From the sequence record OZ035777.1: a stretch of DNA of 40,656 bases. One strand, 5' to 3'. A model generated the notes under the pieces. The model was given only the letters and a program-made list of their open reading frames with translations. It did no database searches and was not told where the DNA came from. Position numbers and translations under genes: made by a program. Source of the stretch: Przondovirus NAN33P1. This document shows positions 2,665 through 12,054 of this stretch, in pieces; within the stretch, counting starts at the first letter, position 1, and the number at the start of each line of letters is the position of its first letter.

Positions 2665-2687
2665 AATTAGGTAGCACTATAGGGAGA
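2665..2687 (+). promoter_or_regulatory. phage RNAP promoter (phi-OR-like, after gene 19)
   Basis: AATTAGGTAGCACTATAGGGAGA, exact match to the 23-bp consensus shared by 13 sites in this window; predicted +1 is G at 2682. Position matches T7 phi-OR. Confidence 0.8.
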
Positions 2688-2827
2688 GACCCAAGGTTAC
2701 ATACTATAAGACTACTTAAAGTTTCATTCATATAGATATGCACTTTAAGTCTCCTCTATGAGAGAGGGTAGTGATGATAATATCACCCTCTAACTATAAG
2801 ACACTAGAGCCAACATAAGGAGGACCT

Positions 2828-2977
2828 ATGCGCTTACTGTTAACCTTACTGCGCCATAGGACTACTTGGCGATTTCTGCTGGTACTTGCTGGTGCCCTTG
2901 GGGCTTCACTGGTTACTCAGCAGCAACTCAGTGGACTGGAGACTCTCGTGTGCTCTCTACTCACTTGTAGCGATTAG
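2828..2977 (+). CDS. gene 19.5-like small protein
   Basis: 49-aa ORF not in the supplied track (<60 aa): MRLLLTLLRHRTTWRFLLVLAGALGASLVTQQQLSGLETLVCSLLTCSD. ATG 2828 with SD TAAGGAGG (2816-2823), stop TAG 2975-2977. Last gene before the genome end, as T7 gene 19.5. Confidence 0.6.
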   Translation: MRLLLTLLRHRTTWRFLLVLAGALGASLVTQQQLSGLETLVCSLLTCSD

Positions 2978-3161
2978 GGTCTTCCTGACGCGCTAGGGAT
3001 TCCGTAGTGATGCTTATCAGCATACACCACTCCATCCCTCTACAGTCAATACTTAAAGTTAACCTTAGGTGATTCATTGGGTCCACCTACGGGTCTATGC
3101 AATGACCTGAGGACTACCTGAGGTTACCTTTAAGAATATGACATAAAGTTCTGAGCGTACA

Positions 3162-3342
3162 TCTCATAGTTTACACTTTTGGTTATCCCCCCCGGTACCC
3201 TCTCAGTCCACCCAAAGTAACCATAGGCCACCCTAAACCTTCGGTTTAACCTTAGGTGGGACTGATGGGAAACCTTTGGTGATACTATATGTTGTGGTGA
3301 GTGGGACCTTGGGATACTATATGTTGATGTCTCTGTGTCCCT
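3162..3342 (+). repeat. predicted terminal repeat region (single collapsed copy) with the physical left genome end near 3162
   Basis: 3162 begins TCTCATAGTTTACAC (T7 left end is TCTCACAGTGTACGG); a C7 run, ACCTTCGGTT, and ...TGTCTCTGTGTCCCT|ATCTGTT at 3329-3348 parallel the T7 terminal repeat and its right boundary as recalled from memory. Boundaries are approximate. Confidence 0.4.
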
Positions 3343-3471
3343 ATCTGTTGGTACTCATTAAGTCACACCTGAGGTAACTACCTGAGGTAATACCGGAGAC
3401 CATATACCTTAGGTTAACCGATGGTACATTAGGTTGAGACTCTTAGATAGTGGTTATCCAGTCATTTACAC

Positions 3472-3494
3472 AATTAGGTATCACTATAGGGAGA
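3472..3494 (+). promoter_or_regulatory. phage RNAP promoter (phi-OL-like, left end)
   Basis: AATTAGGTATCACTATAGGGAGA, one mismatch to consensus (G to T at -8); +1 G at 3489. Lies just upstream of the host-type early promoters, as phi-OL does in T7. Confidence 0.65.
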
Positions 3495-3571
3495 CACTCT
3501 GAGTATTACTAAGAGACCATCACCATAAAGACAACCATCACTATAGGTCTACTTAAAGTTAACTTAGAGTA

Positions 3572-3600
3572 TTGACATTAAGAATACACTGTGAGACTAT
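3572..3600 (+). promoter_or_regulatory. host sigma70-type early promoter (T7 A1 homolog)
   Basis: -35 TTGACA 3572-3577, 17-bp spacer, -10 GACTAT 3595-3600. Upstream AGAGTATTGAC is identical to the T7 A1 promoter upstream region as recalled. Confidence 0.6.
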
Positions 3601-3704
3601 AGCAACCGTTGAGAGACACAACGCTACCAACCACTAGCATACTTCGAGTTACTAGATGGATGCTGAAGGGTCTCAAGTAGCTATCAACCGGCATACGAAA
3701 GTGG

Positions 3705-3733
3705 TTGACTCAACGATGAACAAGTAGTAAGAT
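3705..3733 (+). promoter_or_regulatory. host sigma70-type early promoter (A2/A3-like)
   Basis: -35 TTGACT 3705-3710, 17-bp spacer, -10 TAAGAT 3728-3733; about 175 bp upstream of the first early gene. Confidence 0.5.
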
Positions 3734-3907
3734 GCACCACAGATTCACGAAGTATCGCTCTTTTACAATATGGATTAGCTGACATGTACATCACTCATCA
3801 CTTAGTGTTTAACTAGTGGTTACATTCAGGTCTCTGGCAAGGTACGTCCTGTCACCCTGAGAGTAGCCACACTGATAACCACTAATGTAACATTGAGGAT
3901 ATACACC

Positions 3908-4375
3908 ATGATTCACACGAAAGAACCAGCCAACAAAGTATTTGTATTCGTTACCGCTTACCGTGGGTACGAGTCACTCGAAGTTAACGAGAAGGTACTC
4001 AAGGGCCTCATTCGCACCATTAAGACCTATCCGGGAGCGTATGGCAACATTCGTGATGAGAACGTACAAGGATGCTTTAAGGAGGCTGGTATACCTGAGG
4101 CAACGCAAGAGCGCACGCTTAAGGTGGAATGTACCGTCAAACAAGCGGCTGAGCTGTCATGGTTAGCATGTAAGACCTACCATCAAGACGCTGTACTGGT
4201 GGTTAACTCACAGACTCACACGGCCTCTCTGTGGTCTATCGAGGACAAGGGCGAATACCCAATGGTATACCCATGCTTGAAAGAGGTGTCTTTGGGTGGC
4301 ACGCTGCAACAGGTTGATGCACCTAAGGGTGAATGCTATTCGGTAATCGACGGGCAATACTGGGAGGTGGTGTAA
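3908..4375 (+). CDS. S-adenosylmethionine lyase (T3 gene 0.3 SAMase homolog, anti-restriction)
   Basis: 155 aa from ATG 3908 (SD GAGGA 3895-3899). MIHTKEPANKVFVFVTAYRG...SQTHTASLW... is collinear with the T3 SAMase as recalled (MIFTKEPANVFYVLVSAFRS...SQTHTAGLV). First early gene. Confidence 0.8.
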   Translation: MIHTKEPANKVFVFVTAYRGYESLEVNEKVLKGLIRTIKTYPGAYGNIRDENVQGCFKEAGIPEATQERTLKVECTVKQAAELSWLACKTYHQDAVLVVNSQTHTASLWSIEDKGEYPMVYPCLKEVSLGGTLQQVDAPKGECYSVIDGQYWEVV

Positions 4376-4575
4376 TGAGTAAGCTACTAGCGATATCCAA
4401 AATAACAGGGCAATACACTGTAACACTACGGGAGTACCCGCACGGTAAAATGGGGAGTACCTACACTGTGCGATACGGTAAGCAGGTAAAACACTGGGAC
4501 AACGTGGTACTAGCTCAGGAGGATTATCAATCGTGCGTAGTACATCAATCAACTTGCGCTGGGTGGAATTACTGA
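4375..4575 (+). CDS. hypothetical early protein (66 aa)
   Basis: ATG 4375 overlaps the SAMase stop (TAATG), SD GGAGG 4362-4366. MSKLLAISKITGQYTVTLREYPHGK... No homolog recognised. Confidence 0.5.
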   Translation: MSKLLAISKITGQYTVTLREYPHGKMGSTYTVRYGKQVKHWDNVVLAQEDYQSCVVHQSTCAGWNY

Positions 4576-5192: not shown

Positions 5193-6212
5193 ATGAACTA
5201 CACCGACATGCAAGAACGCTTAGACGTCATCCGTAACCTACCAATCTGTGAACTCGACAAGCGCCAACCGCTATTGGTTGCACTCATCGCGGACATTGTG
5301 AACTACGAGACGTCTGACGGTGACGATACAGCTAGCAGCTGTGGTCTGGAAAGTCAGTACTACTGGCAAACACTGAAGATTAAGGCCAAAGACGCCGGGT
5401 TTAACCTGCTGGGTAATGGTCACTTCAGCGCAGCGTTTAAGCACGAGCTACTACCGGGTAGGGTCATCAAGGTTGGCTTTAAGAAAGAAGACTCTGGGGC
5501 CGCTTACGTAGCATTCTGCCGGATGCATCAAGGTCGTGACGGTATTCCTAACGTCTATCACGTAGCGCGTCACGCTGGGTGCTACACGGTGGTACTAGAT
5601 GAGTTGTTACCGTGTCAACGCTACGAGGATGATGACCACGACCATTATGCAGACTTAGCGTTTCAATTCGTTGAGTGCACAGGCTACGACCATGAGGATT
5701 ACCGCAAGGATGACCAGCCGTTCATCGAAACGTGCCAGATGATTCGCAAGTTCTTCTACGGGATTGCGTCCTTTGATATGCATAGTGGTAACATCATGTT
5801 CACCAAAGACGGCAAGCCAGTGATTACCGACCCGGTGTCATTCTCGCATGACCGCGAACGTGAGTCGTTCTCACTGGAACCTGAGGAACTGCTCGCAGAG
5901 ATTGAGCAGATAGCGCACGATAAGATGATTGAACGCTGCAAGCGCAACAAGGCTAAGCGTGACCCGAACGGGGAGCTGCGCATCGCACGCCGTAAGGCCA
6001 ATAAGGAACGTCGGGCTGCCAACAAGGCACACGCTAGGTGGCGCAAGGAGCGCGAACGTGAACGTGAGCAGTATCACGTAGAAGCCTTAAAGGCAGACAT
6101 AGCGAGCATTGAAGCGCGCGTTCCGGTGTGGTGCAGGGGACCGGGCCTAGCGATACAAATGGGCAAGCCACTACCAATCGACAACTACCTTCAGGCTAGA
6201 CTTATGGGTTAA
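5193..6212 (+). CDS. serine/threonine protein kinase, host shutoff (T7 gene 0.7 homolog)
   Basis: 339 aa; LPICELDKRQ...AGFNLLGNGHFSAAF...RVIKVGFKKEDSGAAY(V/T)AFCRM.QGR.GIPNVY.V.RHAGCYTVVLD...IRKFF.GIASFDMHSGNIMF...ITDPVSFS is collinear with T7 gp0.7, followed by a basic Arg/Lys-rich C-terminal region. Confidence 0.92.
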   Translation: MNYTDMQERLDVIRNLPICELDKRQPLLVALIADIVNYETSDGDDTASSCGLESQYYWQTLKIKAKDAGFNLLGNGHFSAAFKHELLPGRVIKVGFKKEDSGAAYVAFCRMHQGRDGIPNVYHVARHAGCYTVVLDELLPCQRYEDDDHDHYADLAFQFVECTGYDHEDYRKDDQPFIETCQMIRKFFYGIASFDMHSGNIMFTKDGKPVITDPVSFSHDRERESFSLEPEELLAEIEQIAHDKMIERCKRNKAKRDPNGELRIARRKANKERRAANKAHARWRKEREREREQYHVEALKADIASIEARVPVWCRGPGLAIQMGKPLPIDNYLQARLMG

Positions 6213-6281: not shown

Positions 6282-9002
6282 ATGAACGCATTAAACATTG
6301 CACGTAATGACTTCTCAGAGATTGAACTGGCCGCTATTCCGTACAACATCCTCAGCGAGCACTACGGGGACAAACTGGCACGTGAGCAGTTAGCACTCGA
6401 ACATGAAGCGTACGAGCTGGGCGAGCAGCGTTTCCTGAAGATGCTGGAACGTCAGGTTAAAGCTGGTGAGTTCGCTGACAACGTGGCCGCTAAGCCGCTG
6501 GTCTTAACGTTGCACCCACAGTTAACCAAGCGTATTGACGACTGGAAGGAGGAGCAAGCAAACGCTCGCGGTAAGAAGCCTCGCGCATACTATCCGATTA
6601 AGCACGGTGTGGCCTCAGAGTTAGCCATTAGCATGGGCGCTGAGGTGCTCAACGAGAAGCGCGGAGTGTCCAGTGAGGCAATCGCACTGCTAACCATTAA
6701 GGTAGTCTTAGGGACGCTCACAGACGCCTCAAAGGCCACCATCCAGCAGGTATCCTCTCAGTTAGGTAAGGCCCTTGAGGATGAGGCCCGCTTCGGTCGT
6801 ATTCGTGAGCAGGAAGCCACCTACTTCAAGAAGAACGTAGCGGACCAGCTGGACAAGCGCGTAGGCCACGTGTACAAGAAGGCTTTCATGCAGGTTGTCG
6901 AGGCCGATATGATTTCCAAAGGGATGCTGGGTGGTGACAACTGGGCGAGCTGGAAGACCGACGAGCAGATGCACGTGGGGACCAAGCTGCTAGAGTTACT
7001 CATTGAGGGCACTGGTCTGGTGGAAATGACCAAGAACAAGATGGCCGATGGCTCCGACGATGTGACCAGTATGCAGATGGTCCAGCTGGCTCCGGCCTTT
7101 GTGGAACTCCTGAGCAAACGAGCAGGCGCACTCGCAGGTATCAGCCCGATGTACCAGCCGTGCGTAGTCCCTCCGAAACCTTGGGTTGGAACTGTGGGTG
7201 GAGGCTACTGGTCAGTCGGTCGTCGCCCGCTGGCACTGGTGCGTACCCACTCCAAGAAGGCACTGCGCCGCTATGAAGACGTGCACATGCCTGAGGTGTA
7301 CAAAGCAGTCAATCTCGCGCAAAACACGCCGTGGAAGGTGAACAAGAAGGTGCTGGCGGTAGTCAACGAGATTGTCAACTGGAAGCACTGCCCGGTGGGT
7401 GACGTCCCGGCGATTGAGCGCGAAGAATTACCACCACGCCCGGACGATATCGATACCAACGAGGTGGCACGCAAGGCTTGGCGCAAGGAGGCCGCAGCGG
7501 TCTACCGTAAGGACAAGGCACGACAGTCTCGCCGTTTGTCAATGGAGTTCATGGTTGCACAGGCCAACAAATTCGCTAACCATAAGGCCATCTGGTTCCC
7601 ATACAACATGGACTGGCGTGGACGTGTGTACGCTGTTAGCATGTTCAACCCGCAGGGTAACGACATGACTAAGGGTATGCTGACACTGGCCAAGGGCAAA
7701 CCGATTGGTCTCGATGGGTTCTACTGGCTGAAGATTCACGGTGCAAACTGTGCAGGCGTCGATAAGGTTCCTTTCCCTGAGCGCATCAAGTTCATCGAAG
7801 AGAACGAGGGCAACATTCTGGCGAGCGCAGCCGACCCACTGAATAACACTTGGTGGACCCAGCAGGATTCGCCGTTCTGTTTCCTAGCGTTCTGCTTTGA
7901 GTATGCAGGCGTTAAACATCACGGCCTGAATTACAACTGCTCGCTGCCGCTGGCGTTCGATGGGTCATGCTCTGGGATTCAGCACTTCAGCGCAATGCTC
8001 CGCGATTCCATCGGTGGCCGTGCGGTAAACCTGCTGCCATCTGATACCGTGCAGGATATCTACAAGATTGTGGCCGATAAGGTCAACGAGGTGCTCCACC
8101 AGCACGTTGTCAACGGGTCTCAGACGGTGGTCGAGCAGATTGCAGACAAGAAGACTGGGGAGTTCCGCGAGAAGGTAACACTGGGTGAGTCCGTGCTGGC
8201 TGCTCAGTGGTTGCAATATGGTGTTACCCGTAAGGTGACTAAGCGTTCGGTCATGACGCTGGCGTACGGTTCCAAAGAGTTTGGCTTCCGCCAGCAAGTT
8301 CTTGAGGACACCATTCAGCCAGCTATTGATAACGGCGAGGGCTTGATGTTTACGCACCCTAACCAAGCGGCTGGCTATATGGCTAAGCTGATTTGGGACG
8401 CTGTTACCGTGACCGTAGTGGCCGCTGTCGAGGCTATGAACTGGCTGAAGTCTGCTGCTAAACTGCTGGCCGCTGAAGTCAAGGACAAGAAGACCAAAGC
8501 GGTGCTCCGTAAGCGCTGCGCAATCCACTGGGTAACACCAGACGGCTTCCCGGTGTGGCAGGAATATCACAAGCGCGACCAAGCGCGCCTGAAGCTGACG
8601 TTTCTAGGTCAGGCCAACGTGTTCATGACGTACAACAAAGGGGAAGCCAAAGAGATTGACGCACATAAGCAGGAGTCAGGAATCGCTCCTAACTTTGTGC
8701 ACTCACAGGATGGTAGTCACCTGCGCATGACCGTAGTGCACGCCAACGAGGTCTACGGGATTGACTCCTTCGCGCTCATTCACGACTCCTTCGGGACCAT
8801 TCCGGCAGATGCTGGGAATCTATTTAAGGCAGTCCGTGAGACGATGGTAAAGACCTACGAGGATAACGATGTGATTGCAGACTTCTATGACCAGTTCGCT
8901 GACCAGCTGCACGAGTCTCAGCTCGATAAGATGCCTGAGGTACCAGCCAAAGGGGACCTGAATCTGCGCGATATCTTAGAGTCTGACTTTGCGTTCGCGT
9001 GA
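6282..9002 (+). CDS. single-subunit DNA-directed RNA polymerase (T7 gene 1 homolog)
   Basis: 906 aa (the size I recall for K11 RNAP; T7 is 883). Collinear with T7 RNAP throughout, including the C-terminus ...IHDSFGTIPADA.NLFKAVRETMV.TYE..DV.ADFYDQFADQLHESQLDKMP..PAKG.LNLRDILESDFAFA. Confidence 0.98.
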   Translation: MNALNIARNDFSEIELAAIPYNILSEHYGDKLAREQLALEHEAYELGEQRFLKMLERQVKAGEFADNVAAKPLVLTLHPQLTKRIDDWKEEQANARGKKPRAYYPIKHGVASELAISMGAEVLNEKRGVSSEAIALLTIKVVLGTLTDASKATIQQVSSQLGKALEDEARFGRIREQEATYFKKNVADQLDKRVGHVYKKAFMQVVEADMISKGMLGGDNWASWKTDEQMHVGTKLLELLIEGTGLVEMTKNKMADGSDDVTSMQMVQLAPAFVELLSKRAGALAGISPMYQPCVVPPKPWVGTVGGGYWSVGRRPLALVRTHSKKALRRYEDVHMPEVYKAVNLAQNTPWKVNKKVLAVVNEIVNWKHCPVGDVPAIEREELPPRPDDIDTNEVARKAWRKEAAAVYRKDKARQSRRLSMEFMVAQANKFANHKAIWFPYNMDWRGRVYAVSMFNPQGNDMTKGMLTLAKGKPIGLDGFYWLKIHGANCAGVDKVPFPERIKFIEENEGNILASAADPLNNTWWTQQDSPFCFLAFCFEYAGVKHHGLNYNCSLPLAFDGSCSGIQHFSAMLRDSIGGRAVNLLPSDTVQDIYKIVADKVNEVLHQHVVNGSQTVVEQIADKKTGEFREKVTLGESVLAAQWLQYGVTRKVTKRSVMTLAYGSKEFGFRQQVLEDTIQPAIDNGEGLMFTHPNQAAGYMAKLIWDAVTVTVVAAVEAMNWLKSAAKLLAAEVKDKKTKAVLRKRCAIHWVTPDGFPVWQEYHKRDQARLKLTFLGQANVFMTYNKGEAKEIDAHKQESGIAPNFVHSQDGSHLRMTVVHANEVYGIDSFALIHDSFGTIPADAGNLFKAVRETMVKTYEDNDVIADFYDQFADQLHESQLDKMPEVPAKGDLNLRDILESDFAFA

Positions 9003-11726: not shown

Positions 11727-12054
11727 GCACAAGGACCACTGCGCATCACTGCACAGCTTCCGAGCGTGTGATTGTGGTGCTGTACCAGTACGTAACACCA
11801 TTCCTATTGGTACCGTTGATGACGGTGTTAAACAGCCAAGTCATTACCAGCTGTTCGAAGGCGTCGAGGCCATCGAGGTGATTGCTCGCAGCATGACCCA
11901 AGAGATGTTCAAAGGTTACTGCCTCGGGAACATCCTCAAGTATCGCCTTCGGGCCGGGAAGAAGTCCGAGCTGGCAACCTTAGAGAAAGACATGGCGAAG
12001 GCCACTTTCTATCTGGAGCTGTATGCAAAATATAAGGGGTCGTGTCATGATTGA
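11719..12054 (+). CDS. hypothetical Cys/His-rich protein (111 aa)
   Basis: ATG 11719 with SD AAGGAGG 11706-11712, overlapping the upstream stop. N-terminal HCASLHSFRACDCG suggests metal binding. Confidence 0.6.
   Translation: MSEHKDHCASLHSFRACDCGAVPVRNTIPIGTVDDGVKQPSHYQLFEGVEAIEVIARSMTQEMFKGYCLGNILKYRLRAGKKSELATLEKDMAKATFYLELYAKYKGSCHD

What the first reader, a model, noticed from the sequence alone, without database searches (positions are those of the whole stretch)
3908..4375. SAM lyase (T3 0.3-type anti-restriction) instead of a T7 Ocr DNA mimic
The first early gene is collinear with the T3 SAMase (MIHTKEPANKVFVFVTAYRG vs MIFTKEPANVFYVLVSAFRS; SQTHTASLW vs SQTHTAGLV, from memory), not with T7 Ocr. 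It would deplete S-adenosylmethionine, blunting SAM-dependent restriction-modification and possibly other SAM-dependent host functions. This places the phage in the T3/K11-like rather than the strict T7 early-gene configuration.
Basis: partly seen in the sequence, partly recalled or inferred. Interest (0 to 1): 0.45.

Follow-up and report, generated by a model that had tools for sequence, protein, structure and literature searches.

The report
T3-type SAM lyase early gene
The first gene this Klebsiella T7-like phage switches on encodes a well-known type of enzyme that destroys the host's methyl donor SAM to disarm restriction-type defences; it is real, but ordinary and already annotated in hundreds of related phages.

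Summary
The observation and the interpretation both hold. Window 3908-4375 (+) is a 155-codon ORF with a GAGGA ribosome-binding site. It is the first ORF behind two host-type early promoters in a circularly permuted Przondovirus (K11/KP32-like Klebsiella phage) genome.

- **Family match:** it hits Pfam PF23780 (S-AdoMet_lyase) at 119.9 bits against a cut-off of 28.
- **Similarity to T3:** it aligns end to end with T3 gp0.3 SAM lyase (37% identity, E 1e-31). An AlphaFold model superposes on the solved T3 enzyme (8BB1, TM 0.84-0.89).
- **No Ocr:** it shows no similarity to T7 Ocr, and no Ocr-like frame exists anywhere in the window.
- **Key residues:** the T3 substrate-binding residues are kept (G55, E68, Q93, D94). 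So are the MetK-contact residues (T4, N9, Q102-T103-H104-T105). The one change is Tyr57 to Phe, which 28 of 38 aligned family members share.
- **Already public:** K11 gp0.3 is 92% identical, and the exact protein is already in NCBI.

Most likely it cleaves SAM to methylthioadenosine plus homoserine lactone and also binds host MetK, blunting Type I R-M and BREX. Activity in this clade is inferred, not shown. Already known; low interest.

The parts
3572..3608 (+). Host (sigma-70 type) early promoter: -35 TTGACA 3572-3577, 17-nt spacer, TGn-extended -10 GACTAT 3595-3600
   Evidence: Aligns column for column with the 'host RNAP promoter' annotated at K11 581-617. It is too far from consensus in the -10 element to be listed by the simple scan. 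Function is inferred from the K11 annotation.
3705..3741 (+). Host early promoter: TTGACT, 17 nt, TAAGAT (3705-3733)
   Evidence: Found by the promoter scan with 9/12 matches. It aligns with the K11 annotated host RNAP promoter at 715-751 and is nearly identical in sequence. The total number of sites in that scan was not above shuffles, so the support comes from conservation and annotation, not from the scan.
3800..3897 (+). Long imperfect hairpin in the 5' leader, a candidate RNase III processing site (R0.3 equivalent). Its 3' arm reaches the ribosome-binding site.
   Evidence: Inverted repeat 3801-3822 / 3876-3897. The RNA fold of 3790-3912 gives -37 kcal/mol, z = -3.0, and 0 of 200 shuffles fold as well. 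phiSG-JL2 carries an annotated 'RNaseIII site R0.3' stem-loop 28 nt upstream of its 0.3 gene. No covariation test was possible, because K11 is nearly identical here. There was no Rfam match.
3895..3899 (+). Shine-Dalgarno GAGGA, 8 nt before the ATG
   Evidence: Read directly from the sequence. It is conserved in K11.
3908..4375 (+). Gene 0.3: T3-type S-adenosylmethionine lyase, 155 aa, 17.4 kDa, pI 5.4
   Evidence: Pfam PF23780 at 119.9 bits vs cut-off 28. PDB 7OCK/8BB1 E 1e-22. T3 37% identity, E 1e-31. K11 gp0.3 92%. AF2 model pLDDT 82 with Foldseek 8bb1_E E 1e-13, TM 0.84/0.89. Key residues conserved.
4362..4377 (+). Translational coupling to the next early gene: SD GGGAGG inside the 3' end of 0.3, and ATG 4375-4377 overlapping the TAA stop (TAATG)
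   Evidence: Read directly from the sequence. The downstream 66-aa ORF 4375-4575 matches phrog_6500 at E 9e-41 and is called as a gene on the Logan contig.

Best explanation
Window 3908-4375 is gene 0.3 of a Przondovirus (K11/KP32-like Klebsiella podophage) and encodes an orthologue of the phage T3 SAM lyase. Host RNA polymerase transcribes it from the early promoters as the genome enters the cell, so it is the first phage protein made. By analogy with T3, it lowers the cell's SAM pool in two ways. (a) It cleaves SAM intramolecularly into 5'-methylthioadenosine and homoserine lactone, using the conserved Gly55 / Phe57 / Glu68 / Gln93 / Asp94 pocket to hold SAM in a reactive conformation. (b) It binds the host SAM synthetase MetK through its invariant N-terminal tail (M-I-x-T-K-E-P-A-N) and the Q102-T103-H104-T105 loop, which blocks re-synthesis of SAM. 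SAM-dependent defences then fail before they can attack the unmodified phage DNA: Type I (and Type III) restriction, which need SAM as a cofactor for cleavage, and BREX. What is shown here: homology, fold, residue conservation, gene position and expression signals. What is inferred: enzymatic activity, MetK binding in Klebsiella and the anti-defence phenotype.
For: Family and fold: (PF23780 E 9e-35; 7OCK/8BB1 E 1e-22; T3 37% identity end to end; Foldseek TM 0.84-0.89 to 8bb1_E, with Svi3-3 6zm9 as the next distinct protein). Catalytic residues come from the literature: T3 E68, Q94 and D95, equivalent to Svi3-3 E69, Q104 and E105, plus G56/Y58 (PMC7877911; bioRxiv 2023.02.27.530186). In the window protein E68 is invariant in 38/38 aligned relatives, and G55, Q93 and D94 are each present in 37/38. 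T3 E67 is Gln here, but E67Q in T3 behaves like wild type. MetK contacts in T3 are M1, I2, F3, T4, K5, A8, N9, Q103, T104, (H105) and T106. Here all are kept except F3 to H. T4 and QTHT are 38/38 and N9 is 37/38. The N-terminal tail is strongly conserved yet has low pLDDT (below 50 for residues 1-3, mean 62 for 1-10), as expected of a partner-binding tail. K. pneumoniae MetK is 97% identical to E. coli MetK and keeps D132, V133, I178 and I211 of the specificity patch. T3 SAMase expressed in K. pneumoniae produces a SAM-depletion phenotype (PMC12456054). Gene position: it is the first ORF after promoters that align with K11's annotated host promoters. Purifying selection: 45 synonymous vs 13 non-synonymous codon changes against K11.
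Against: No enzyme of this Przondovirus clade was found to have been assayed in the searchable literature. The residue equivalent to Svi3-3 Tyr58 / T3 Tyr57 is Phe. Y58F in Svi3-3 lowered activity five-fold and destabilised its trimer. However, the same paper reports that the Tyr-Glu proton relay is not required, Phe can still give the cation-pi contact, and Phe is the majority state in the family (28 of 38). On the host side, one MetK specificity residue differs in Klebsiella (A214 to T), and the neighbouring residues 218-220 differ too. MetK capture in Klebsiella is therefore plausible but unproven. The structural match rests on a predicted model.
Confidence: 0.88

Rival explanations
1. The protein is a catalytically weak or dead lyase that works mainly as a stoichiometric inhibitor of host MetK. 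SAM would then fall because synthesis stops, not because SAM is cleaved.
For: Tyr57 is Phe, and Y58F weakens Svi3-3. A catalytically inactive T3 E68Q/Q94A mutant still binds MetK and keeps partial anti-BREX activity. The MetK-contact residues are the most conserved surface positions of the family.
Against: All other substrate-binding residues (G55, E68, Q93, D94) are invariant or nearly so across 38 relatives, which is hard to explain without selection for SAM binding. Phe at position 57 is the majority state of the family rather than a lesion of this gene. The published calculations say the Tyr hydroxyl is dispensable.
Confidence: 0.07
2. It is a SAM-dependent methyltransferase, as RefSeq and PHROG 2226 label it and its relatives. 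In that case it would methylate something rather than destroy SAM.
For: This rests only on database names: phrog_2226 and the RefSeq product names for K11, KP32, KpV289 and others.
Against: No methyltransferase domain appears in a Pfam scan at E<=1; the only hit is the SAM lyase family. The only solved relatives are SAM lyases. No methyltransferase is among the top 50 fold matches. The GenBank versions of the same records say SAM hydrolase. The label looks like propagated mis-annotation.
Confidence: 0.01
3. It is an Ocr-like DNA mimic that binds restriction enzymes directly, which is the T7 solution at the same genome position.
For: It occupies the same genomic slot (gene 0.3) as T7 Ocr. Older genome papers conflate the two functions (PMC4283147).
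Against: BLASTP finds no alignment to Ocr at E<=100. No Ocr-like frame exists in the window (best tblastn E 3.2). D+E is 12.9% and pI 5.4, against 29.1% D+E for Ocr. The predicted fold is a beta-barrel with two helices, not Ocr's helical DNA mimic.
Confidence: 0.005
4. Its relevant substrate is the type III CRISPR second messenger SAM-AMP, so it would act as an anti-CRISPR, like the Clostridium botulinum SAM-AMP lyase.
For: Chi et al. 2023 show that a SAM-lyase-like protein degrades SAM-AMP, and they suggest that lyases on mobile elements could act as anti-CRISPRs (PMC10600005).
Against: Nothing in the window or its relatives points to CorA-type type III CRISPR in the host. The conserved MetK-contact residues and the T3 phenotypes already explain the gene. 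I did not test whether the C. botulinum enzyme is closer to the Svi3-3 or the T3 subfamily.
Confidence: 0.02

Closest known systems
Klebsiella phage K11 gp0.3 and its Przondovirus orthologues (KP32, K5, KpV289, ZK2, and others)
   Same: It has the same length (155 aa) and is 92% identical to K11 and 97.4% to vB_KpnP_ZK2. It has the same position behind the same host promoters and the same leader hairpin and RBS. The exact protein sequence is already in NCBI and on a Logan contig, in a 90%-identity cluster of 501 members.
   Different: Only point differences, for example H3 vs F3 and variable residues at 61-67 and 113-123. K11 carries an extra unannotated 62-aa ORF between the promoters and 0.3, which the window lacks. 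The window has a 66-aa ORF between 0.3 and the gp0.4-like gene that K11 lacks.
Phage T3 gp0.3 SAM lyase (SAMase; PDB 7OCK, 8BB1; Pfam PF23780)
   Same: Collinear over the full length at 37% identity. It has the same predicted fold (TM 0.84-0.89). It keeps G55, E68, Q/D (T3 94/95) and the MetK-contact residues T4, K5, A8, N9 and Q-T-H-T. It is the first early gene behind host promoters with an upstream RNase III-type hairpin.
   Different: Tyr57 is Phe, Phe3 is His and Glu67 is Gln. An 8-residue insertion lengthens the hairpin around residues 113-121. There is no in-frame internal start at the position of the T3-group 0.3B product, codon 28. The host is Klebsiella, whose MetK has T214 instead of A214.
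Svi3-3 / Orf1 environmental phage SAM lyases (PDB 6ZM9, 6ZMG)
   Same: The chemistry is the same (SAM to MTA plus homoserine lactone) and the Gly/aromatic/Glu/Gln/acid substrate-binding constellation is equivalent. The fold resemblance is weak (Foldseek rank 6, probability 0.96).
   Different: phmmer finds no sequence similarity, and TM is only 0.35-0.40. Svi3-3 is a trimer with active sites between subunits, lacks the MetK-binding residues and gave no anti-BREX effect (and figure S1 legend).
T7 Ocr (gp0.3)
   Same: It has the same genomic slot and the same biological purpose, overcoming Type I R-M and BREX.
   Different: It is an unrelated protein with an unrelated mechanism: a DNA mimic rather than metabolite depletion. 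No sequence similarity was found.

Membership tests
T3-type SAM lyase (Pfam PF23780 S-AdoMet_lyase) | Scores above the family's curated HMM threshold over the whole domain | tested here: met
   119.9 bits vs gathering score 28; residues 13-154 cover profile positions 1-132 of 133.
T3-type SAM lyase (Pfam PF23780 S-AdoMet_lyase) | Full-length collinear similarity to the experimentally characterised T3 enzyme | tested here: met
   BLASTP gives 37% identity, residues 1-154 vs 1-151, E 1e-31. phmmer against PDB 7OCK/8BB1 gives E 1e-22.
T3-type SAM lyase (Pfam PF23780 S-AdoMet_lyase) | Monomer fold: antiparallel beta-barrel with two outer helices, as in 8BB1/7OCK | tested here: met
   The AF2 model (pLDDT 82, pTM 0.73) has 8 DSSP strands and two long helices (24-40, 77-90). 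Foldseek to 8bb1_E gives E 1e-13, TM 0.84/0.89. This is a predicted structure, not a solved one.
T3-type SAM lyase (Pfam PF23780 S-AdoMet_lyase) | Substrate-binding residues: Gly55, Glu68, Gln94, Asp95 (T3 numbering) | tested here: met
   G55, E68, Q93 and D94 are present. Across the 38 aligned relatives they occur in 37, 38, 37 and 37 sequences respectively.
T3-type SAM lyase (Pfam PF23780 S-AdoMet_lyase) | Aromatic residue over the sulfonium (Svi3-3 Tyr58 / T3 Tyr57) | tested here: inconclusive
   It is Phe57 here. The position is aromatic in all 38 relatives (28 Phe, 10 Tyr). Y58F in Svi3-3 cost five-fold in activity. The effect in the T3-type scaffold is unknown.
T3-type SAM lyase (Pfam PF23780 S-AdoMet_lyase) | MetK-contact residues (T4, N9, Q103, T104, H105, T106 in T3) | tested here: met
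   T4, N9, Q102, T103, H104 and T105 are all present and are invariant or 37/38 in relatives. F3 is His here; the position is polymorphic (H/Y/F) even among Klebsiella phages.
T3-type SAM lyase (Pfam PF23780 S-AdoMet_lyase) | Cleaves SAM to 5'-methylthioadenosine plus homoserine lactone | not testable with these tools
   This needs a biochemical assay. No published assay of a Przondovirus enzyme was found.
T3-type SAM lyase (Pfam PF23780 S-AdoMet_lyase) | First early gene, transcribed by host RNA polymerase; confers resistance to Type I R-M / BREX | tested here: inconclusive
   Position and promoters are met. The phenotype is not testable here.
Svi3-3-type trimeric SAM lyase | Detectable sequence or close fold similarity to Svi3-3 (6ZM9) | tested here: not met
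   phmmer finds no hit at E<=1. Foldseek gives E 0.03, TM 0.35/0.40. It is a distant relative at best, not a member of that subfamily.
Ocr (T7 gp0.3 DNA mimic) | Sequence similarity to Ocr and an extremely acidic composition | tested here: not met
   BLASTP finds no alignment at E<=100. The Pfam scan at E<=1 returns no Ocr family. D+E is 12.9% against 29.1% in Ocr.
SAM-dependent methyltransferase (RefSeq/PHROG label) | Methyltransferase domain or Rossmann-type fold | tested here: not met
   The only Pfam hit is the SAM lyase family. No methyltransferase appears among the top 50 fold matches.

The most novel reading that the evidence does not exclude
The Przondovirus branch of the family differs from T3 by Phe57, a variable residue 3 and an 8-residue longer hairpin at about 113-121. 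The most novel reading is that this branch is tuned to Klebsiella MetK (T214 and altered residues 218-220). The balance between SAM cleavage and MetK capture would then differ from T3, and the gene would contribute to host specificity or to evasion of Klebsiella-specific SAM-dependent defences such as BREX and the Type I-like systems of hypervirulent strains. Evidence against: residue 3 is H, Y or F among phages of the same host genus, so it does not track the host. All other contact residues are identical to T3.
Probability: 0.12. Interest if true: 0.3.

Novelty: already known. Interest (0 to 1): 0.1.

Why it matters
It matters little as a discovery. The gene family has a Pfam entry and two solved structures. 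A 2021-2023 literature covers its mechanism, and near-identical copies are annotated in several hundred Klebsiella phage genomes. The practical value is modest and has three parts. First, it correctly classifies the phage's anti-defence equipment (SAM depletion, not an Ocr mimic), which is relevant when choosing Klebsiella therapy phages against hosts with Type I R-M or BREX. Second, it flags that the widespread RefSeq/PHROG label 'SAM-dependent methyltransferase' is wrong for this family. Third, it shows that the whole Przondovirus clade carries Phe instead of the Tyr discussed in the mechanistic papers, and no member of the clade appears to have been assayed.

Tried and rejected
- **Ocr elsewhere in the window:** tblastn of T7 Ocr gave a best E of 3.2. 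A scan for very acidic + strand ORFs found only three unrelated ones, at 12023, 12262 and 23515. Rejected.
- **Methyltransferase reading of the database label:** rejected.
- **NCBIfam:** no model matches. This is uninformative, because that library targets cellular genomes.
- **Rfam on the whole window:** no match at gathering score, so the leader hairpin cannot be assigned to a curated RNA family.
- **Internal 0.3B-type start, as annotated in phiSG-JL2 at codon 28:** there is no start codon there. The only in-frame candidates with SD-like sequence lie in the last 27 codons. Rejected.
- **Klebsiella MetK from the genome collection:** Trabulsiella and Scandinavium as proxies showed that the interface residues vary even among close relatives. 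I then obtained real K. pneumoniae MetK sequences through the cluster look-up.
- **'Trp 26' in PMC8406200:** this residue does not correspond to a Trp in E. coli MetK numbering, where position 26 is Ala. W216 in the same patch is conserved. I left this residue out of the comparison.
- **Profile search of PDB with alignment A1:** the profile includes T3 itself, so its E-value (2e-54) is not independent evidence.
- **First structure job:** I re-ran it without T3.

Full report
**What is at the coordinates.** Window 3908-4375 (+) is an ATG-initiated ORF of 155 codons ending in TAA. A GAGGA Shine-Dalgarno sequence (3895-3899) sits 8 nt upstream.

**What the window is.** The first 25 kb are about 92% identical, over 94-95% of their length, to many Klebsiella phages of the genus Przondovirus (Autographiviridae, Studiervirinae).
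- Aligning window 2950-3910 with the left end of phage K11 places K11 nucleotide 1 at window 3162. The K11 180-bp terminal repeat then falls at 3162-3341, its phiOL phage promoter at 3472-3494, and its two annotated host-RNA-polymerase promoters at 3572-3608 and 3705-3741.
- The window is therefore a complete, circularly permuted phage genome (40,656 bp) whose physical left end lies near 3162.
- The ORF is the first gene downstream of the early promoters. No + strand ORF of 30 aa or more lies between 3733 and 3908.
- Downstream lie four small early ORFs (phrog_6500; a weak gp0.4/PF26807 match; phrog_2385; phrog_23914). The gp0.7-type kinase (5193-6212) and the RNA polymerase (6282-9002) follow.

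**Formal test of the homology claim.**
- Pfam gives a single hit, PF23780 'S-Adenosylmethionine lyase family', E 9e-35, 119.9 bits against a cut-off of 28, covering the whole profile.
- The only significant solved relative is the T3 enzyme (7OCK, 8BB1; E 1e-22).
- BLASTP against T3 gp0.3 gives 37% identity and 56% positives over residues 1-154 vs 1-151, E 1e-31.
- tblastn of T3 gp0.3 against the whole window hits only 3908-4369.
- An AlphaFold2 model was built from 37 relatives, with T3 excluded (pLDDT 82, pTM 0.73). Its best PDB match is chain E of 8BB1, 'T3 SAM lyase in complex with S-adenosylmethionine synthase' (E 1e-13, TM 0.84/0.89). The 7OCK chains come next, and then, far weaker, the Svi3-3 lyase 6ZM9.
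- The gene is under purifying selection: 45 synonymous vs 13 non-synonymous codon differences to K11, and 17 vs 4 to ZK2.

**Test of 'instead of Ocr'.** T7 Ocr, taken from NC_001604, gives no BLASTP alignment at E<=100. tblastn of Ocr against the window gives nothing better than E 3.2. The protein is not Ocr-like in composition either (D+E 12.9% vs 29.1%).

**Test of 'T3/K11-like'.** K11 gp0.3 is 92% identical. The best phage-database match is vB_KpnP_ZK2 at 97.4%. In all, 470 phage records encode a relative, 287 of them Klebsiella phages. The identical protein already exists in NCBI and on a 40,686-bp Logan contig (ERR12949717), in a 90%-identity cluster of 501 members.

**Mechanism, residue by residue.**
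- Guo et al. 2021 (PMC7877911) showed that phage SAMases, T3 included, are lyases, not hydrolases. They make MTA plus homoserine lactone. Few residues matter: in Svi3-3 these are Gly56, Tyr58, Glu69, Gln104 and Glu105, and T3 Glu68 is the Glu69 equivalent.
- Andriianov et al. (bioRxiv 2023.02.27.530186) showed that T3 E68Q/Q94A is catalytically dead but still binds MetK and keeps part of the anti-BREX activity. T3 contacts MetK through M1, I2, F3, T4, K5, A8, N9 and Q103, T104, T106, with H105 supporting the tail. These residues are conserved among relatives with at least 30% identity.
- Simon-Baram et al. 2021 (PMC8406200) independently found MetK binding and inhibition.
- In the window protein the corresponding residues are G55, F57, Q67, E68, Q93 and D94, then M1, I2, H3, T4, K5, A8, N9, and Q102, T103, H104, T105.
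- In an alignment of 38 relatives spanning 28-95% identity, T4, E68 and Q-T-H-T are invariant. N9, G55, Q93 and D94 are each 37/38. Position 57 is Phe in 28 and Tyr in 10. Position 3 is H, Y or F. Position 67 is free to vary, which is consistent with T3 E67Q behaving as wild type.
- The N-terminal tail combines near-invariance with low model confidence, as expected of a segment that orders only on its partner.

**The host side.** K. pneumoniae MetK was obtained from the cluster of E. coli MetK. It is 97% identical to the E. coli enzyme and keeps D132, V133, I178 and I211 of the patch that makes E. coli MetK sensitive to T3 SAMase. It has T214 instead of A214, and residues 218-220 differ. 'Trp 26' in that paper does not fit E. 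coli numbering, so I did not use it. T3 SAMase expressed in K. pneumoniae gives a SAM-depletion phenotype (PMC12456054), so the strategy works in this host genus.

**Expression signals.**
- The promoter at 3705-3733 (TTGACT-17-TAAGAT) is found by the scan and is almost identical in K11. The scan's total count is not above shuffles, so the support is conservation plus K11's annotation.
- The leader between the promoter and the RBS folds into a long hairpin: 3801-3822 pairs with 3876-3897, -37 kcal/mol, z = -3.0, and no shuffle folds as well. This is at the position where phiSG-JL2 has an annotated RNase III site R0.3. I treat it as a candidate RNase III site. It is too conserved between the window and K11 to test by covariation, and Rfam has no match.
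- The stop codon overlaps the next gene's ATG (TAATG, 4373-4377), with GGGAGG 8 nt upstream. This indicates translational coupling.

**Rivals.**
- A mainly MetK-inhibiting, weakly catalytic protein cannot be excluded without an assay. It is disfavoured by the conservation of the SAM-binding residues.
- The 'SAM-dependent methyltransferase' label in RefSeq and PHROG 2226 has no support from domain or fold searches.
- The Ocr reading is refuted.
- A SAM-AMP lyase or anti-CRISPR role (PMC10600005) is possible in principle but has no support here.

**Verdict.** The finding is an ordinary, already annotated member of a characterised family. The only points beyond the textbook are the family-wide Tyr-to-Phe state, the absence of any published assay for the Przondovirus clade, and the mislabelling in some databases. 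Interest 0.1; novelty: already known.

Noticed in passing
window 3162-3341 (and 3341-3349): The window is a circularly permuted complete phage genome. K11's physical left end and its 180-bp terminal repeat align to 3162-3341, and the concatemer junction aligns to 3341-3349. Only one copy of the repeat is present, so the assembly collapsed the direct terminal repeats.
   Followed up: partly
window 2665-2690 and 3472-3497: Two copies of a K11-type phage RNA polymerase promoter (AATTAGGTAnCACTATAGGGAGA) flank the genome end. The second aligns with K11's annotated phiOL. The first, just after the terminase gene, would be the phiOR equivalent.
   Followed up: partly
L004 (phage K11) 913-1101: K11 has an unannotated 62-aa ORF (MEIVMQALNHG...) between its host promoters and gene 0.3. 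It is preceded by the same RBS context as the window's 0.3 gene and followed by a second copy of that context. The window lacks this roughly 246-bp segment. Several other Klebsiella phages show an insertion in this region too, seen as two-piece matches spanning about 1280-1325 bp for an 1101-bp query.
   Followed up: partly
window 4375-4575: A 66-aa early ORF (phrog_6500, unknown function) is translationally coupled to the SAM lyase gene. It sits between 0.3 and the gp0.4-like ORF. K11 goes straight from 0.3 to 0.4. The early region is mosaic among close relatives.
   Followed up: partly
window 3908-4375; databases: There is a naming conflict. PHROG 2226 and the RefSeq records (K11, KP32, KpV289, IL33, BIS33, and others) call this family 'SAM-dependent methyltransferase'. 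The GenBank versions say SAM hydrolase, and Pfam/PDB say SAM lyase. The methyltransferase label has no support.
   Followed up: yes
proteins P0013, P0038, P0047 (homologues): Some metagenomic relatives carry both PF23780 (SAM lyase) and PF26807 (phage T7 gp0.4) in one predicted protein, with only 42-76% of the query covered. They look like frameshifted or read-through fusions of 0.3 with the next gene, or gene-calling artefacts.
   Followed up: no
phage records PQ569706.1 (vB_Kpn_K74_evo4), OR645408.1 (phage 515), WPJ52275.1 (RCIP0048, 133 aa): Several Klebsiella phages carry truncated or interrupted copies of the gene. In the 'evo4' phage only residues 99-155 remain. This hints that the gene is dispensable, or is lost, under some propagation conditions.
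   Followed up: no
one search hit table (Klebsiella phages): Klebsiella phages carry at least three sequence clades of this lyase relative to the window protein: 83% identity or more (Przondovirus), about 45% (for example phi1_146018, 066038) and about 37% (T3-like, for example Bumbleweed, NL_ZS_3).
   Followed up: no
PMC8406200 vs L005 (E. coli metK): That paper lists 'Trp 26' among six MetK specificity residues, but E. coli MetK has Ala at position 26. The nearest Trp in the same surface patch is W216. This is possibly a typographical slip in the paper.
   Followed up: partly
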